From assembly GCF_003018255.1 (NCBI RefSeq), contig NZ_CP027440.1: a stretch of DNA of 64,000 nt; one strand, 5' to 3'. Position numbers: made by a program. Position 1 is the stretch's first letter; every line of letters begins with the position of its first letter. Source of the stretch: Escherichia coli (lineage in GTDB: Bacteria > Pseudomonadota > Gammaproteobacteria > Enterobacterales > Enterobacteriaceae). Of the stretch, positions 40,101 to 46,100 are shown piece by piece.

Positions 40101-43100
40101 GTACGGTCAGACCATATTTCAGGCAGTGAACGCCACCGGCATTTTCCGCCACATTGCCGCCAATTGAACAGGCGATTTGTGAGGAAGGATCCGGCGCGTA
40201 ATAGAGATTATGCGGCGCAACGGCCTGGGAGATCGCCAGATTACGCACGCCCGGCTGCACGCGCGCGCGGCGACCAACGGGGTTAATGTCGAGGATCTCT
40301 TTAAAGCGCGCCATCACCAACAACACACCTTTTTCCAGTGGCAGCGCGCCACCAGAAAGCCCGGTGCCTGCACCACGGGTCACCACCGGTACACGCAGGC
40401 GGTGGCAGACAGCCAGAATCGCCGTCACCTGTTCCATCTGCTTTGGCAAAACAACCAGTAATGGACGCGTGCGATACGCGCTCAACCCGTCACACTCGTA
40501 AGGAATGATCTCCTCATCGGTATGCAGGATCTCAAGTCCAGGGACATGCTCACGCAGTGCCATCAGTACCGATGTGCGGTCGACATCGGGTAAAGCGCCA
40601 TCAAGACGCTCTTCGTACAAGATGCTCATGAATAGGCTTCGCTTTGTTGTGTTGTGTGGCAGCTGATTTTTGCGCGCTGCTTCTGTGAACAGTTATTAAG
40701 CGGGCTTTTCGTTTTCGTCTATCTCTTTAGCTACCGGTCAGACCATTTTTTTTCCAGCTCTGTGACCTTGCCTTGGTTAACTTAATGTTAAATTGATGTA
40801 ACATAATCACTTGCGTGATGTGCGTGTTTTGCGAGTTAAGAACAGAAAAATTGGTCCTACCTGTGCACGAGGTCCGGGAATGAAAGATGAACGTCGCCCT
40901 ATTTGCGAAGTGGTTGCAGAGAGTATCGAACGGTTAATTATCGACGGCGTGTTGAAGGTCGGTCAGCCGCTTCCCTCGGAACGTCGACTGTGTGAAAAGC
41001 TCGGCTTCTCACGCTCCGCACTGCGTGAAGGGCTGACCGTGCTGCGCGGGCGCGGGATTATTGAAACGGCGCAGGGTCGCGATTCTCGTGTCGCACGGCT
41101 TAATCGGGTGCAGGACGCCAGCCCGCTGATCCATCTGTTCAGTACGCAGCCGCGAACGCTGTACGATCTGCTCGACGTTCGCGCATTACTGGAGGGCGAA
41201 TCGGCAAGGCTGGCGGCAACGCTGGGAACCCAGGCTGATTTTGTTGTGATAACCCGCTGTTATGAAAAAATGCTCGCCGCCAGTGAGAACAACAAAGAGA
41301 TTTCGCTGATCGAACATGCGCAGTTGGATCACGCTTTCCATCTCGCCATTTGTCAGGCTTCTCACAATCAGGTGCTGGTGTTTACGCTGCAATCATTGAC
41401 CGATCTGATGTTTAATTCAGTGTTTGCCAGCGTAAATAATCTCTACCATCGACCACAGCAAAAAAAGCAGATCGATCGCCAGCATGCGCGGATCTACAAC
41501 GCGGTGTTGCAGCGGCTGCCGCACGTCGCCCAGCGCGCAGCACGTGATCATGTGCGGACCGTGAAAAAGAATCTCCACGATATCGAGCTGGAAGGCCACC
41601 ATTTGATTCGCTCGGCGGTGCCGCTGGAGATGAAGCAGGGGTGACTGCCATCAAATCTGCTTTTCATACAATCGGTAACGCTTGTACGGCTCCGCCCCAA
41701 TGCGTTCCAGCATGTTATTCATGCCTGTATTGGTTTCGAGGATCCATGACATCTCCAGCGCATCGATCTTCCGACGGGCAAACGGATCGCGTAAGGCTTC
41801 AATCAATAACAGCGCAATTACCGGGCCGATGCGGCTGAACTGATACTCGTCCCGCACGCCCATCAGCGGCACTCGCGCAGTTCGCACACCGCTGACTTTC
41901 AAACGCCACAGCAATTTTGCCCAGCCGAAGGGAAAGAGCGATCCGTTCAGATCGGCAATCGCCTCGTTGATGTTCGGCAAGCCAACAATAAACGCGCAGG
42001 GTGCAGAATCAATCTCAGCGATGTAGATCATATCGTCCGGCACCAGATATTTAAGTTGATCGCCCATGGTCGCGAATTCATGTTCGGTAAACGGCACAAA
42101 TCCCCAGTTGTGCTGCCAGCCAGAATTGAAAATCTCACGCAGGATCTGCATCTCTTCGGCAAACCGCTGGCGATTGATGCAGCGAATGGTCACTTTTTTG
42201 CGCACCTGATCCATCAGTTTTTTTAGCGCCGGAGAGAACGTGAGATCGGTTCGCTGCATCCACCACGCCAGTAAATCAATGCCTTTGTGATAACCCAGTT
42301 GTTCAATATGCGCGGCATACCACGGTTTGCCGTGTGGCATCATCGCACAGGGCGGAGTGTCAAAACCTTCAATCAGTAATCCGCTTTCCTGATTGATATT
42401 CAGGCTGAAAGGCCCGCTGATCTTATTTGCACCTTGTGACTTTAACCACGCTTCCGCTGCGCCAAACAACGCGGCAAAAACCTGCGGATCATCAATGGCA
42501 TCAATCATTCCGTAATGACCGGTATCTTCACCGTAACGCTCACGGTGCAAGGTATCGATTTGCGCGGTAATACGCCCAACTATCTGCCCCGCTTTTTTTG
42601 CCACCCACGCCTGCCAGATGATATGGTCCGTCCCCGGATTCTTCGCAGACAAATGCTCGCTGCGTTCAATGAATAAAGGGGGTATCCAGTTTGGATCATC
42701 GGGATAAAGTGATGACGGAAAAGCGATAAATGCCTTAAGGTCATTTTTATTAATTACTTTTTCAATTTTAATCATCAGCAGATCGCATTCCATATCTCTG
42801 TGGATAACAAATAATTAACGGTGAAAAACAGGTTGCAACAGCAACGAACGGCATCTTAATAATCAACCCAATGAATACAAACAAAGAATAAATAGTATTT
42901 ATTAATGATTACGATAAGGTCAGAGACTACACAGAAGCGCCACAATGCCTCTTGTCGATTTAAGGCGACCGGACAAGGCTCCTTCTTAATATATTCATAA
43001 ATTAAATATCATTCACAATAAAAACAAAAAAACTCAAACATATTATTTAAATCAATGTTCATTTTCACACCGATGAAAATACTATCTCATTTATCTTTTA

Positions 43101-46100
43101 TGCCTATATAATCCACCGCATTATTGTCATTTTATTTTGGATATCCAATTTTTTCGTGGTGTATATGTCTAATAAAATCTTTACGCATTCCCTACCTATG
43201 CGCTATGCCGATTTTCCAACGCTGGTTGATGCTTTGGACTACGCCGCTCTGAGTAGCGCCGGAATGAATTTTTATGACAGACGTTGCCAACTTGAAGATC
43301 AACTGGAATATCAGACGTTAAAAGCGCGTTCCGAAGCTGGTGCGAAAAGGTTGTTATCGCTGAACCTGAAAAAAGGCGATCGCGTGGCGCTGATTGCCGA
43401 AACGAGTAGCGGGTTTGTAGAGGCTTTTTTTGCCTGCCAGTATGCCGGCTTAGTCGCCGTCCCGTTGGCGATTCCAATGGGCGTCGGTCAGCGGGATTCC
43501 TGGAGCGCCAAACTGCAGGGTTTACTGGCAAGTTGCCAGCCCGCAGCCATTATCACTGGTGATGAGTGGTTGCCACTGGTCAATGCCGCGACGCATAACA
43601 ACAACCCCGAATTACATGTTTTAAGCCACGCCTGGTTTAAGGCATTACCGGAAGCCGATGTTGCGCTCCAGCGTCCAGTTCCAAACGATATCGCCTACCT
43701 CCAGTACACCTCCGGCAGCACCCGTTTTCCCCGTGGCGTCATTATCACCCATCACGAAGTGATGGCTAATCTACGTGCTATAAGCCACGATGGCATTAAA
43801 TTACGCCCTGGCGACCGCTGCGTCTCCTGGCTGCCTTTCTACCATGATATGGGACTGGTCGGCTTTCTCCTGACCCCCGTCGCCACGCAGCTTTCAGTAG
43901 ATTATTTGCGCACTCAGGATTTTGCCATGCGTCCTCTGCAATGGCTTAAATTGATCAGTAAAAATCGCGGCACCGTTTCCGTTGCACCGCCGTTTGGCTA
44001 TGAATTGTGCCAGCGCCGCGTGAATGAAAAAGATCTCGCTGAACTGGATCTTTCCTGCTGGCGCGTCGCTGGTATTGGAGCAGAACCGATCTCCGCAGAA
44101 CAACTCCATCAATTCGCTGAATGTTTTCGTCAGGTTAACTTTGACGATAAAACTTTCATGCCGTGCTACGGACTGGCAGAAAATGCGCTGGCTGTCAGCT
44201 TCTCTGATGAAGCCTGCGGGGTTGTGGTTAACGAAGTGGATCGCGACATCCTCGAATACCAGGGTAAAGCCGTCGCGCCGGGTGCTGAAACACGCGCCGT
44301 ATCGACTTTCGTCAACTGCGGTAAAGCGTTGCCGGAACATGGCATTGAAATCCGCAATGAAGCAGATATACCTGTCGCGGAACGTGTGGTAGGCCATATT
44401 TGCATCTCCGGCCCCAGCCTGATGAGCGGGTACTTTGGCGACCAGGTTTCGCAAGACGAGATTGCCGCGACGGGCTGGTTAGACACCGGCGACCTTGGTT
44501 ATCTGCTGGACGGTTATCTGTATGTCACCGGACGCATTAAAGATCTGATTATTATTCGTGGCCGTAATATCTGGCCGCAGGATATTGAATACATTGCGGA
44601 ACAGGAACCGGAAATTCATTCTGGCGATGCGATTGCTTTTGTTACCGCCCAGGAAAAAATCATTTTGCAGATCCAGTGTCGGATCAGCGACGAAGAACGT
44701 CGCGGGCAGCTTATCCACGCGCTGGCAGCTCGGATCCAAAGCGAATTTGGCGTTACCGCGGATATCGATCTGTTGCCGCCCCACAGTATTCCCCGAACAT
44801 CCTCCGGCAAGCCTGCCCGTGCGGAAGCGAAAAAACGTTATCAGAAGGCTTATGCTGCCAGTCTTCATGTGCAGGAATCCCTGGCATGAATCAAACTGTC
44901 GCGGTGACGGGCGCTACCGGGTTTATCGGTAAATATATTATTGATAACCTGCTCGCCCGCGGCTTTCACGTTCGCGCATTAACGCGTACTGCCCGCGCTC
45001 ACGTCAATGATAATCTCATCTGGGTGCGCGGTTCGCTGGAAGATACACATTCGCTTAGCGAACTGGTTGCCGGAGCCAGCGCGGTGGTCCATTGCGCCGG
45101 ACAAGTGCGCGGACACAAAGAAGAGATTTTTACCCGCTGTAACGTTGACGGCAGCCTGCGCCTGATGCAAGCGGCAAAAGAGAGCGGCTTTTGCCAACGT
45201 TTTCTGTTTATCTCTTCGCTGGCGGCGCGCCATCCCGAACTCTCCTGGTACGCAAATTCCAAACACGTCGCCGAACAACGACTGATCGCAATGGCTGACG
45301 AAATTACGCTGGGCATTTTTCGCCCGACAGCCGTGTATGGTCCCGGCGATAAAGAGTTAAAACCGCTGTTTGACTGGATGCTGCGCGGCCTGCTGCCACG
45401 ACTTGGTGCGCCAGATACACAACTCTCTTTCCTGCACGTCACCGATTTTGCGCAAGCAGTGGGTCAGTGGTTAAACGCCGAAACTGTACAGACGCAAACC
45501 TATGAATTATGCGATGGCGTCGCTGGCGGCTATGACTGGCAACGCGTACGACAGCTTGCCGCCGAAGCCCGTTGTGGTTCTGTGCGGATGGTTGGCATTC
45601 CTCTGCCGCTACTCACCTGCCTTGCGGATATCAGTACTGCGTTGAGTCGCCTGGCAGGTAAAGAACCTATGCTGACCCGCTCGAAAATTCGTGAATTAAC
45701 CCACGCCGACTGGTCGGCAAATAATAACCGTATTTCTGAAGATATTAATTGGTTTCCCGGGATTAGCCTGGAACACGCATTACGCAACGGGCTATTTTGA
45801 TTGTCTTGTTTAAAGGTGTGTTAACGTTTCTATGGTAAATCGTGAAATAGTAATGGATTACATCCTTTCCTGTTTACAGGATTTGGTCGAAAACGGTGTG
45901 GAAATTAAGCCCGACAGCGATCTCGTCAACGATCTTGGCCTGGAGTCGATCAAAGTGATGGATCTCTTAATGATGCTGGAAGACAGATTCGATATTTCCA
46001 TTCCTATTAATATTCTGCTGGATGTCAAAACCCCTGCGCAATTAATGGAAACTCTACTTCCATGGCTGGAGAATAAATAATGGGGCTATACGATAAATAT

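What the first reader, a model, noticed from the sequence alone, without database searches (positions are those of the whole stretch)
42794..43164. AT-rich divergent control region between yghO and the biosynthetic operon
The 371-bp intergenic region is strongly AT-rich, with long A/T tracts (for example aataaaaacaaaaaaactcaaacatattatttaaatcaatgttcatttt) and no strong Shine-Dalgarno before the first gene. Such regions are typical targets of nucleoid-associated silencing (H-NS/StpA) and can be favoured insertion sites. From memory, this is the position where K-12 carries an IS5 insertion.
Basis: partly seen in the sequence, partly recalled or inferred. Interest (0 to 1): 0.5.

Follow-up and report, generated by a model that had tools for sequence, protein, structure and literature searches.

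The report
Control region of E. coli ceramide genes
This is a real but ordinary AT-rich stretch between two back-to-back gene sets that make a sphingolipid (ceramide) in most E. coli; the laboratory strain K-12 MG1655 does not carry an IS5 inside it but has lost it, with 8.4 kb of neighbouring DNA, in an IS5-linked deletion.

Summary
Window 42794-43164 is exactly the 371-bp spacer between yghO (minus strand) and a four-gene plus-strand operon. It has 31% G+C against 52% for the window, and no strong Shine-Dalgarno precedes the first gene.

The flanking genes are the published E. coli (dihydro)ceramide cluster: yghO is the N-acyltransferase 'aca', and the operon is aasR-epi-acpR-spt.

The spacer is not uniform:
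- The 92 bp next to aasR (43073-43164) are 97% invariant across Escherichia lineages, against 53% at fourfold-degenerate sites. They hold a perfect TATAAT with a poor -35.
- The central 160 bp drift at the neutral rate but stay AT-rich.

H-NS silencing is plausible on composition alone. It could not be tested here.

The IS5 recollection is only partly right:
- In MG1655 the IS5 junction lies 41 bp outside the spacer, inside yghO, and window 42754-51139 is deleted.
- K-12 strain NCM3722 keeps the spacer intact.
- Insertion-sequence endpoints inside the spacer are rare: three independent events were found among 5,426 genomes.

Verdict: an ordinary, uncharacterised divergent promoter region of a known cluster. 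In passing, orthologous spacers in Serratia, Pantoea, Tatumella and Klebsiella indica carry an exact PhoP box that Escherichia lacks.

The parts
42794..43164 (.). 371-bp AT-rich divergent intergenic region (the finding)
   Evidence: Annotation of the identical record. G+C 0.31, in the lowest 0.4% of 371-bp windows.
41651..42793 (-). yghO, the 'aca' N-acyltransferase of (dihydro)ceramide synthesis; possible true start at Met7 (42775)
   Evidence: Annotation. Equated with Caulobacter CC_1154 / BL21 ECD_02850 in PMC9386255. No Pfam or NCBIfam hit. Relatives align from residue 5-7.
43165..44889 (+). aasR, fatty acyl-AMP ligase / acyl-AcpR synthetase, first gene of the operon; alternative start at GTG 43156
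   Evidence: NCBIfam NF006624, 867 bits against a cutoff of 600. Named aasR (ECD_02851) in PMC9386255. An ATG sits at the GTG position in Citrobacter, Pseudocitrobacter and Hafnia.
44886..45800 (+). epi, an SDR-type predicted ketosphinganine reductase
   Evidence: Annotation. Weak NCBIfam SDR/epimerase hits. Named epi (ECD_02852) in PMC9386255.
45832..46080 (+). acpR, specialised acyl carrier protein
   Evidence: Annotation. ACP families in NCBIfam. Biochemically characterised as AcpR(Ec) in PMC9386255.
46080..47252 (+). spt, serine palmitoyltransferase
   Evidence: NCBIfam NF047599, 598 bits against a cutoff of 500. SPT(Ec) activity shown in PMC9386255.
43073..43164 (+). Strongly constrained aasR-proximal module (inferred core promoter plus 5' leader)
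   Evidence: 89 of 92 columns invariant in 5 Escherichia lineages, against 53% at 399 fourfold-degenerate sites (p = 5e-18). At most 1 mismatch in essentially all 4,145 E. coli genomes that hold it. Alignment.
43107..43112 (+). Perfect -10 hexamer TATAAT, the best promoter candidate for aasR; inferred transcription start near 43119
   Evidence: Best-scoring sigma-70 candidate in the region. Invariant in Escherichia. TATAAT/TATAAC/TTTAAT-like hexamers align at the same place in Hafnia, Pseudocitrobacter and C. amalonaticus. Overall, promoter-like hits do not exceed shuffles.
43084..43089 (+). Weak -35-like hexamer ATCTCA (3 of 6), 17 bp upstream of the -10
   Evidence: The poor -35 is the basis for inferring dependence on an activator.
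42881..43039 (.). Fast-evolving AT-rich centre of the spacer, with a small G+C-richer island at about 42925-42985
   Evidence: 81 of 159 columns invariant, the same as fourfold sites. Megablast finds it in only 3,619 genomes, 1,535 of them at 90-95% identity. Hairpin folds are not significant.
42750..42753 (.). TTAA at the left junction of the MG1655 IS5, inside yghO and 41 bp outside the spacer
   Evidence: blastn of the MG1655 locus against the window, plus the junction sequence. This junction is present in 353 of 5,426 genomes.
51141..51144 (.). Site of the right-hand flank of the K-12 IS5 (CTAA in K-12, CTGA here), inside full-length yghQ
   Evidence: NCM3722 has the same right junction.
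42986..42989 (.). TTAA inside the spacer where strain C21 carries ISKpn26 (IS5 family), with deletion of 42990-51828
   Evidence: Found only in strain C21.
43025..43036 (.). Site of a simple IS1 insertion with a 9-bp target duplication (AACAAAACC) in strain Ecol_AZ146
43101..43102 (.). IS1 junction in strain 21AH057; a different island (integrase, TPR protein) lies upstream

Best explanation
The region is the shared, divergent promoter and control region of the E. coli (dihydro)ceramide biosynthesis cluster. To the left is yghO (the ceramide-synthase-type N-acyltransferase 'aca'). To the right is the operon aasR-epi-acpR-spt.

Shown:
- the layout, the AT-richness and the identity of the flanking genes;
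- a 92-125-bp module next to aasR that is under strong purifying selection and contains a perfect -10 (TATAAT, 43107-43112), a poor -35 and a weak ribosome-binding site;
- a central ~160 bp that evolve neutrally yet stay about 70% A+T.

Inferred:
- aasR is transcribed from near 43119 by sigma-70 RNA polymerase, with a short leader of about 46 nt;
- because the -35 and the Shine-Dalgarno are weak, expression is low unless an unidentified activator acts on the conserved module;
- the AT-rich spacer is probably coated by nucleoid proteins (H-NS/StpA), which would help keep both promoters quiet in laboratory culture;
- the yghO promoter lies in the less conserved left half and cannot be placed.
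For: Anatomy and composition.

Gene identity: NCBIfam Spt at 598 bits (cutoff 500) and FAAL at 867 bits (cutoff 600). PMC9386255 names ECD_02850-02854 as aca(yghO)/aasR/epi/acpR/spt and shows AasR(Ec)+AcpR(Ec)+SPT(Ec) making 3-oxo-sphinganine.

Conserved architecture: the divergent yghO/aasR layout occurs in about 40 Enterobacterales and Pseudomonas loci, and the spacer always has lower G+C than the flanking genes.

Constraint: 89 of 92 invariant columns against 53% at fourfold sites, p = 5e-18; the centre is at 51%. At the population scale, the block has at most 1 mismatch in about 4,145 genomes, whereas the centre is at 90-95% identity in 1,535 genomes and undetected in more than 500.

Promoter: TATAAT with ATCTCA at 17-bp spacing is the top plus-strand candidate. 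Similar -10 hexamers align in Hafnia, Pseudocitrobacter and C. amalonaticus.

Low native expression: BL21(DE3) has the intact cluster and a 97%-identical spacer. Yet its empty-vector controls show no 3-oxo-sphinganine and no SPT activity in extracts (PMC9386255).
Against: No transcription start, expression or binding data exist for this spacer in anything I could reach.

Promoter-like matches are not enriched over shuffles (61 against 52 +/- 9), and the best score is below the mean best score of shuffles. The stricter scan found one minus-strand site against 3.1 expected. The TATAAT therefore rests on conservation, not on statistics.

Only one near-match (2 mismatches) to the H-NS high-affinity motif is present. 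The flanking genes are not AT-rich or foreign.

No activator site could be named. Twenty consensus scans gave nothing that survives multiple testing.

The BL21 'silence' is an indirect reading of control lanes, not a measurement of transcription.
Confidence: 0.62

Rival explanations
1. One reading: the spacer is above all an H-NS/StpA-silenced region. Silencing is the main control, relieved by a counter-silencer, and its AT-richness makes it a preferred landing site for insertion sequences such as the K-12 IS5.
For: G+C of 0.31 over 371 bp, many A/T runs, and TpA steps 2.3 times the window average. The neutral centre keeps its AT-richness in alleles only 74-80% identical, as expected if composition rather than sequence is what matters. 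The native cluster appears inactive in BL21(DE3). IS5 target sites (YTAR) are 2.7 times denser than the window average. Three independent insertion-sequence endpoints lie inside the spacer.
Against: There are no occupancy or hns-mutant data. The MG1655 IS5 junction is outside the spacer, in yghO. The other K-12 IS5 junctions at this locus are all in coding DNA (acpR, ytfJ-like, yghQ). At most 0.5% of genomes that carry the spacer have it disrupted. The cluster is ancestral in Enterobacterales with normal G+C. The strongest constraint is on a specific 92-bp sequence, not on composition.
Confidence: 0.4
2. There is nothing special here. It is an ordinary pair of weak constitutive promoters, and the AT-richness is simply that of bacterial promoter DNA, with no dedicated silencing or activation.
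For: Four of 21 spacers in this window are equally AT-rich. Promoter-like and transcription-factor-like matches do not exceed shuffles. There is no Rfam family and no significant RNA fold.
Against: The aasR-proximal block is more conserved than the coding sequence around it, which a minimal constitutive promoter would not need. The poor -35 and weak Shine-Dalgarno argue for conditional expression. The native cluster gives no detectable product in BL21(DE3). Orthologous spacers in other genera carry exact PhoP boxes and a conserved palindrome, which are dedicated regulator sites.
Confidence: 0.2
3. The invariant block is a cis-acting leader rather than a promoter. Transcription would start further upstream (for example from TATTAT at 43041-43046). 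A 12-codon upstream ORF (ATG 43073 to TAA 43111, MKILSHLSFMPI) or an RNA structure would then control aasR translation or attenuation.
For: Invariance begins exactly at ATG 43073 and runs into the first ~35 codons of aasR. An AU-rich inverted repeat (43129-43147 / 43160-78) could pair across the start codon. A promoter-like site predicts a start near 43053.
Against: The upstream ORF has no Shine-Dalgarno. Its one variable site is non-synonymous (CCT/CAT). The ORF is not kept in Pseudocitrobacter or Citrobacter. RNA folds of the leader are not better than shuffles (z = -0.5 to -1.1). Rfam finds nothing.
Confidence: 0.08

Closest known systems
Caulobacter crescentus ceramide synthesis genes (spt CC_1162, acpR CC_1163, epi/cerR CC_1164, aasR CC_1165, aca/bCerS CC_1154) and the E. 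coli BL21(DE3) cluster ECD_02850-02854 described in PMC9386255
   Same: The same five gene families. The E. coli B cluster is the same locus, with a spacer 97% identical to this one. AasR, AcpR and SPT of E. coli were shown to make 3-oxo-sphinganine.
   Different: The paper treats the enzymes only. The intergenic control region, its promoters and its regulation are not described. In Caulobacter the acyltransferase gene is not adjacent and divergent.
AT-rich, H-NS/StpA-silenced promoter regions of enterobacteria (for example bgl and proU; from general knowledge)
   Same: About 70% A+T over more than 300 bp, A/T tracts and many TpA steps. The genes appear inactive in laboratory culture.
   Different: No binding or mutant data. 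The neighbouring genes have ordinary G+C and are vertically inherited. Only one near-match to the high-affinity H-NS motif.
IS5-associated deletions of E. coli K-12: the yghO-insH9-yghQ junction of MG1655 and the 7-kb difference with NCM3722 reported in PMC3045373
   Same: The same locus. IS5 is flanked by YTAR sites (TTAA on the left, CTAA on the right).
   Different: IS5 is not inserted in the spacer. In MG1655 it replaces window 42754-51139. In NCM3722 the spacer is intact and IS5 sits in acpR and at ytfJ/yghQ.
PhoP-activated promoters with the (T/G)GTTTA-N5-(T/G)GTTTA box
   Same: Orthologous yghO/aasR spacers of Serratia, Tatumella, Pantoea brenneri and Klebsiella indica hold an exact box at a conserved position.
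   Different: The Escherichia spacer has no exact box. The best match is 10 of 12, no better than shuffles, and is not conserved among E. coli alleles.

Membership tests
Divergent intergenic promoter region | Lies between two genes transcribed away from each other | tested here: met
   yghO is on the minus strand and ends at 42793; aasR is on the plus strand and starts at 43165. The same layout occurs in about 40 other loci.
Divergent intergenic promoter region | Recognisable promoter elements for each gene | tested here: inconclusive
   A perfect, conserved TATAAT with a weak -35 for aasR. No convincing yghO promoter. Matches are not enriched over shuffles.
Divergent intergenic promoter region | Sequence constraint above the neutral rate | tested here: met
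   43073-43164 is 97% invariant against 53% at fourfold sites. Population-scale confirmation. The centre is neutral.
H-NS/StpA-silenced region | AT-rich, curved or TpA-rich DNA over hundreds of bp | tested here: met
   G+C 0.31; TpA frequency 0.097 against 0.042.
H-NS/StpA-silenced region | High-affinity nucleation motif (tCGATAAATT-like) | tested here: inconclusive
   One site with 2 mismatches (TTCATAAATT at 42994). That is 2.7 per kb against 1.0 per kb in the window, from a single hit.
H-NS/StpA-silenced region | H-NS occupancy in vivo | not testable with these tools
   MG1655 lacks the region. The ETEC H10407 ChIP-seq supplement has no entries for this locus.
H-NS/StpA-silenced region | Derepression in hns/stpA mutants | not testable with these tools
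   The stored copy of the EAEC 042 hns RNA-seq table is cut off at 1.86 Mb, before this locus.
H-NS/StpA-silenced region | Association with horizontally acquired, AT-rich genes | tested here: not met
   The flanking genes have G+C of 0.50-0.53, equal to the window mean, and the cluster is syntenic across Enterobacterales.
K-12 IS5 insertion site | IS5 lies within 42794-43164 in K-12 | tested here: not met
   The MG1655 junctions are at 42753/42754 and 51139/51140, so the spacer is deleted. NCM3722 has an intact spacer.
K-12 IS5 insertion site | IS5 flanked by its YTAR target | tested here: met
   TTAA on the left and CTAA on the right. The flanks are not identical, as expected for a deletion rather than a simple insertion.
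Insertion-sequence hot spot | Repeated independent insertions in the spacer across strains | tested here: inconclusive
   Three independent endpoints: ISKpn26 at 42989, IS1 at about 43030, IS1 at 43101. However, at most 21 of 4,157 genomes are affected, and no baseline for other spacers was measured.
Control region of a bacterial ceramide (Spt-AcpR-AasR-Epi-Aca) cluster | The flanking genes are the five ceramide-pathway families | tested here: met
   NCBIfam scores above cutoff for Spt and FAAL. Gene-for-gene assignment in PMC9386255. YghO itself has no family hit, so its role rests on the paper.
Riboswitch or structured RNA leader | Match to a known RNA family, or a fold better than shuffles | tested here: not met
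   Rfam gives 0 hits at E <= 1. Fold z-scores are -0.5 to -1.1.
PhoP-regulated promoter | (T/G)GTTTA-N5-(T/G)GTTTA box | tested here: not met
   No exact box in Escherichia. The best match is 10 of 12, and 35% of shuffles do as well. Exact boxes occur in 11 orthologous spacers of other genera.

The most novel reading that the evidence does not exclude
The 92-bp invariant module next to aasR could be a dedicated switch: an activator site overlapping a deliberately weak promoter, with H-NS over the AT-rich spacer. It would keep the ceramide pathway of most E. coli off, except under a specific envelope signal of the kind implied by the exact PhoP boxes in the orthologous spacers of Serratia, Pantoea, Tatumella and Klebsiella indica. 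E. coli would then be a conditional sphingolipid producer. The MG1655 reference lineage would have hidden this, because IS5 removed both the genes and their control region.
Probability: 0.2. Interest if true: 0.55.

Novelty: new member of a known kind. Interest (0 to 1): 0.25.

Why it matters
On its own this is an ordinary promoter region.

Its context gives it some value. It controls a sphingolipid (ceramide) pathway present in about 77% of complete E. coli genomes but missing from the MG1655 reference, so its regulation has never been studied.

The analysis narrows the search. The functional part is about 92-125 bp next to aasR. It also identifies tractable strains that still have the region: BL21(DE3) and the K-12 strain NCM3722, although in NCM3722 acpR is interrupted by IS5. 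Finally, it offers a concrete regulatory lead from relatives, the PhoP boxes.

It also corrects a common simplification: K-12 MG1655 lost this region by stepwise IS5-linked deletions, not by an insertion into it.

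Tried and rejected
- **Known RNA families:** Rfam on window 41000-45000 and on five orthologous loci gave no hits.
- **RNA folding:** folds of the putative leader, of a longer leader and of the central G+C-richer hairpin on both strands were no better than shuffles.
- **Promoter statistics:** neither the built-in scan nor my position-weight scan shows enrichment over shuffles.
- **Regulator sites:** I scanned consensus sequences for 20 regulators (Fur, CRP, FNR, ArcA, IHF, PhoB, PhoP, OmpR, CpxR, RcsB, LexA, Lrp, MarA, FadR, NarL, Nac, LeuO, SlyA, Cra, NagC). Only an ArcA-like repeat (13 of 15, p about 0.01 uncorrected) and a FadR-like site (12 of 17, p about 0.04) stood out. 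Neither survives correction, and the FadR-like segment is deleted in two Escherichia lineages.
- **Hidden small gene:** I looked for a conserved small ORF in the longer spacers of other genera and found none shared. The E. coli spacer has no detectable similarity outside Escherichia.
- **H-NS literature:** the ETEC H10407 ChIP-seq supplement has nothing for this locus. The stored EAEC 042 hns RNA-seq table is truncated before it. O157:H7 Sakai cannot help because the whole region is replaced by the SpLE3 island.
- **Locus-tag searches:** these returned only the enzymology paper and unrelated mentions.
- **YghO:** no Pfam, NCBIfam or PDB sequence relative.
- **12-codon upstream ORF:** rejected as a likely element (no Shine-Dalgarno, not conserved outside Escherichia).
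- **Palindrome ATTTTCA-N6-TGAAAAT (43061-43080):** rejected as a conserved operator, because its left arm varies among E. coli alleles.

Full report
**What is there**

The window is E. coli chromosome, 100% identical over the finding to strain 2017.09.02CC (NZ_AP025214.2). The annotation of that record puts yghO at window 41651-42793 on the minus strand. A plus-strand run of four tightly packed genes follows:
- fatty acyl-AMP ligase, 43165-44889
- NAD-dependent epimerase/dehydratase-family protein, 44886-45800
- acyl carrier protein, 45832-46080
- serine palmitoyltransferase, 46080-47252

The quoted A/T-rich string sits at 43017-43065.

G+C is 0.31 against 0.52 for the window. Only 0.4% of 371-bp windows are as low. 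Among the 21 spacers of at least 60 bp it is the second most AT-rich, but three others (pitB|gss, yghS|yghT, upstream of sslE) are close. It has eleven A/T-only runs of 8-13 bp and 2.3 times the window's TpA frequency.

Upstream of the annotated ATG 43165 there is only GGTG (43158-43161). Upstream of the alternative GTG 43156 there is nothing resembling a Shine-Dalgarno.

**What the flanking genes are**

The last gene passes NCBI's curated serine palmitoyltransferase model (598 bits, cutoff 500). The first passes the fatty acyl-AMP ligase model (867 bits, cutoff 600).

The cluster is already in the literature. Padilla-Gomez et al. 2022 (PMC9386255) describe the identical locus of E. coli BL21(DE3):
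- aca = yghO (ECD_02850)
- aasR (ECD_02851)
- epi (ECD_02852)
- acpR (ECD_02853)
- spt (ECD_02854)

[quoted passage not shown] The paper shows that the E. coli AasR, AcpR and SPT together make 3-oxo-sphinganine. YghO itself has no Pfam, NCBIfam or PDB sequence relative, so its role rests on that paper's homology to Caulobacter CC_1154.

The spacer is thus the shared control region of the E. coli ceramide cluster.

**Comparative anatomy of the spacer**

The divergent yghO/aasR arrangement recurs in about 40 loci from Escherichia, Citrobacter, Serratia, Pantoea, Erwinia, Hafnia, Tatumella, Rosenbergiella and even Pseudomonas. The spacers are 288-1,113 bp long and always have lower G+C than the flanking genes. 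Those genes have ordinary G+C. This is an old, vertically kept layout, not a foreign island.

The E. coli spacer has no detectable similarity outside Escherichia.

Within Escherichia the spacer is sharply heterogeneous:

| Segment | Invariant columns (5 lineages) | Comparison with 399 fourfold-degenerate sites (53%) |
|---|---|---|
| aasR-proximal, 43073-43164 | 89 of 92 | odds ratio 26, p = 5e-18 |
| centre, 42881-43039 | 51% | indistinguishable from neutral |
| yghO-proximal third | 63% | slightly higher, not significant |

The same picture holds across the 5,426 complete genomes. The proximal block is found in 4,145 genomes, essentially all with at most one mismatch. An equal-length central piece is found by megablast in only 3,619, of which 1,535 are at 90-95% identity.

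The neutral centre nevertheless keeps about 30% G+C even in alleles only 74-80% identical.

**How it most likely works**

The invariant block holds a perfect -10 hexamer, TATAAT (43107-43112). Seventeen bp upstream is ATCTCA, a poor -35. This is the top plus-strand candidate in my scan and predicts a start near 43119 and a leader of about 46 nt. TATAAT/TATAAC/TTTAAT-like hexamers align at the corresponding place in Hafnia, Pseudocitrobacter and Citrobacter amalonaticus.

A caveat applies. Promoter-like matches in this AT-rich DNA are no more frequent than in shuffles (61 against 52 +/- 9), and the built-in scan found one site against 3.1 expected. The assignment therefore rests on conservation, not on statistics.

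A perfect -10 with a weak -35 and a weak ribosome-binding site is the usual signature of a promoter that needs help. I could not name the helper:
- Twenty regulator consensus scans gave nothing that survives multiple testing.
- No known RNA family matches.
- Leader folds are not better than shuffles.
- A 12-codon upstream ORF that starts exactly where invariance starts (ATG 43073) lacks a Shine-Dalgarno and is not kept outside Escherichia.

There is indirect evidence that the native cluster is off in the laboratory. BL21(DE3) has the intact cluster and a spacer 97% identical to this one. Yet its empty-vector controls show neither 3-oxo-sphinganine nor SPT activity (PMC9386255).

**H-NS**

Composition makes H-NS/StpA binding plausible. 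The fact that the neutral centre keeps its AT-richness fits a role for composition.

Three things count against treating it as established:
- there is only one near-match to the high-affinity motif;
- the neighbouring genes are not AT-rich;
- no data could be reached.

On the last point, MG1655 lacks the region, the ETEC H10407 ChIP-seq supplement has nothing for this locus, and the stored EAEC 042 hns RNA-seq table stops at 1.86 Mb. I rate H-NS occupancy at about 0.4-0.5, untested.

**The IS5 claim**

Aligning MG1655 (NC_000913.3, 3124000-3136000) to the window gives two blocks, ending at window 42753 and resuming at 51140, with IS5 (insH9) between them.
- The left junction is TTAA|GGAAGG..., inside yghO and 41 bp to the left of the spacer.
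- The right junction is ...CCTTCC|CTAA, inside the full-length yghQ homologue.
- The flanks differ (TTAA against CTAA), as expected for a deletion rather than a simple insertion.

So in MG1655 the spacer, the whole operon and five further genes (8,386 bp in this strain's coordinates) are absent. This junction is present in 353 of 5,426 genomes.

Lyons et al. 2011 (PMC3045373) had already reported that K-12 strain NCM3722 carries about 7 kb more here. In its genome:
- yghO, the spacer, aasR and epi are intact;
- one IS5 is a simple insertion in acpR (about 46046-46050, TTAA duplicated);
- a second IS5 has deleted 49784-51139 and shares MG1655's right junction.

The K-12 lineage thus eroded the cluster stepwise. 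Only the MG1655/W3110 branch lost the spacer.

**Is the spacer a favoured insertion site?**

Of 5,426 genomes:
- 4,157 have the spacer, 4,136 of them essentially intact;
- 865 lack even glcC-yghO. In O157:H7 Sakai this is because the SpLE3 island at pheV runs into a truncated pitB.

I found three independent events with an endpoint inside the spacer:
- ISKpn26 (IS5 family) after TTAA at 42989 in strain C21, with deletion to 51828. This is independent of the K-12 event at both ends and confined to that strain.
- A simple IS1 insertion with a 9-bp duplication near 43030 in Ecol_AZ146.
- An IS1 junction at 43101/43102 in 21AH057.

YTAR targets are 2.7 times denser than the window average. This gives weak support at best. 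No baseline for other spacers was measured, and most IS5 junctions at this locus lie in coding DNA.

**Comparison with what is known, and verdict**

This is the uncharacterised control region of a known gene cluster, and the K-12 deletion is also known. It behaves like an ordinary AT-rich divergent promoter region with one strongly constrained module. It is not a member of any RNA family, not a PhoP promoter in E. coli, and not the K-12 IS5 insertion site.

Interest is low (0.25). The most novel reading still open is that the invariant module is a dedicated switch that makes E. coli a conditional sphingolipid producer (probability about 0.2).

**Seen in passing**

Eleven orthologous spacers (Serratia, Tatumella, Pantoea brenneri, Klebsiella indica) carry an exact PhoP box (for example TGTTTAGGAAGTGTTTA). 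It is always on the aasR-sense strand, 366-391 nt from yghO. Only one further match occurs in the other ~342 kb of those loci.

Ten spacers carry a TGAATA...TATTCA palindrome 102-126 nt upstream of aasR.

These point to dedicated regulation of the cluster in other genera, and they suggest conditions worth testing in E. coli.

Noticed in passing
L017-L019, L021, L022, L041, L047 (Serratia), L024, L050 (Tatumella), L026 (Klebsiella indica), L042 (Pantoea brenneri): yghO-aasR spacers, e.g. L017 locus about 3602-3618: An exact PhoP-box pattern, [TG]GTTTA-N5-[TG]GTTTA, is present in 11 of 41 orthologous spacers. It is always on the aasR-sense strand, 366-391 nt from the yghO start, inside a conserved block with TTTTACCACTTAATGC about 70 nt before it. 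Only one other match occurs in the remaining ~342 kb of those loci. This suggests PhoPQ control of the ceramide cluster in these genera. The box is absent from Escherichia.
   Followed up: partly
L014, L028 (Pseudocitrobacter), L017-L019, L021, L041, L047 (Serratia), L026, L036: 102-126 nt upstream of aasR: A conserved palindrome, TGAATA(N3-7)TATTCA, lies at a fixed distance upstream of aasR in 10 spacers, against 2 matches elsewhere in those loci. E. coli has a different, non-conserved palindrome (ATTTTCA-N6-TGAAAAT, window 43061-43080) at the same distance.
   Followed up: partly
L060 (K-12 NCM3722, NZ_CP011495.1), corresponding to window about 46046-46050 and 49784-51139: K-12 NCM3722 keeps yghO, the spacer, aasR and epi. 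One IS5 is simply inserted in acpR (TTAA duplicated). A second IS5 has deleted the ytfJ-like gene's 5' part through to yghQ's 3' part, and shares MG1655's right junction. The cluster was therefore eroded stepwise by IS5 in the K-12 lineage.
   Followed up: yes
L056 (O157:H7 Sakai, NC_002695.2, 3852167-3876852): In O157:H7 Sakai the SpLE3 island at tRNA-Phe (pheV) runs directly into a truncated pitB. The whole type II secretion / sslE / glc / yghO / ceramide / yghQRST stretch of this window is missing. This probably accounts for many of the 865 genomes with no match to glcC-yghO. I checked Sakai only.
   Followed up: partly
window 43156-43167: aasR may start at GTG 43156 (the 577-aa ORF) rather than the annotated ATG 43165. 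Citrobacter amalonaticus, Pseudocitrobacter and Hafnia have ATG at exactly that position (cATGGTGTAT against cGTGGTGTAT). RefSeq annotations of E. coli strains disagree on length (562, 573 or 574 aa).
   Followed up: partly
window 47287-54624: Downstream of the operon, convergent with it, lie LptG-like and LptF-like permeases, a YtfJ-family protein, a hypothetical protein, a full-length 449-aa YghQ (flippase-like 'lipopolysaccharide biosynthesis protein'), YghR/YghS and the divergent YghT (kinase-like). These could be an export or modification module for the lipid. K-12's yghQ is a truncated remnant.
   Followed up: no
window 42805-42819 (minus strand): An ArcA-like direct repeat, GTTAATTATTTGTTA (13 of 15 to consensus; 1% of shuffles do as well, uncorrected for 20 tests), lies just upstream of the yghO start. 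It is partly conserved in Escherichia.
   Followed up: no
window 56173-56463, 53758-53931, 31720-32203: Three other spacers in the window are as AT-rich as the finding: pitB|gss at G+C 0.30, yghS|yghT at 0.32, and upstream of sslE at 0.32.
   Followed up: no
H87, NZ_CM184343.1 (strain ES5), about 4129035-4129083: In strain ES5 the annotation under a short match joins gspK directly to the fatty acyl-AMP ligase gene. This implies another large deletion (roughly window 18000-43650) that removes the spacer.
   Followed up: no
L055 (strain AVS0575, NZ_CP124483.1): About 75 extra bases lie between glcC and yghO, and the fatty acyl-AMP ligase is annotated as a pseudogene with an internal stop. This is another sign that the cluster decays in some lineages.
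   Followed up: no
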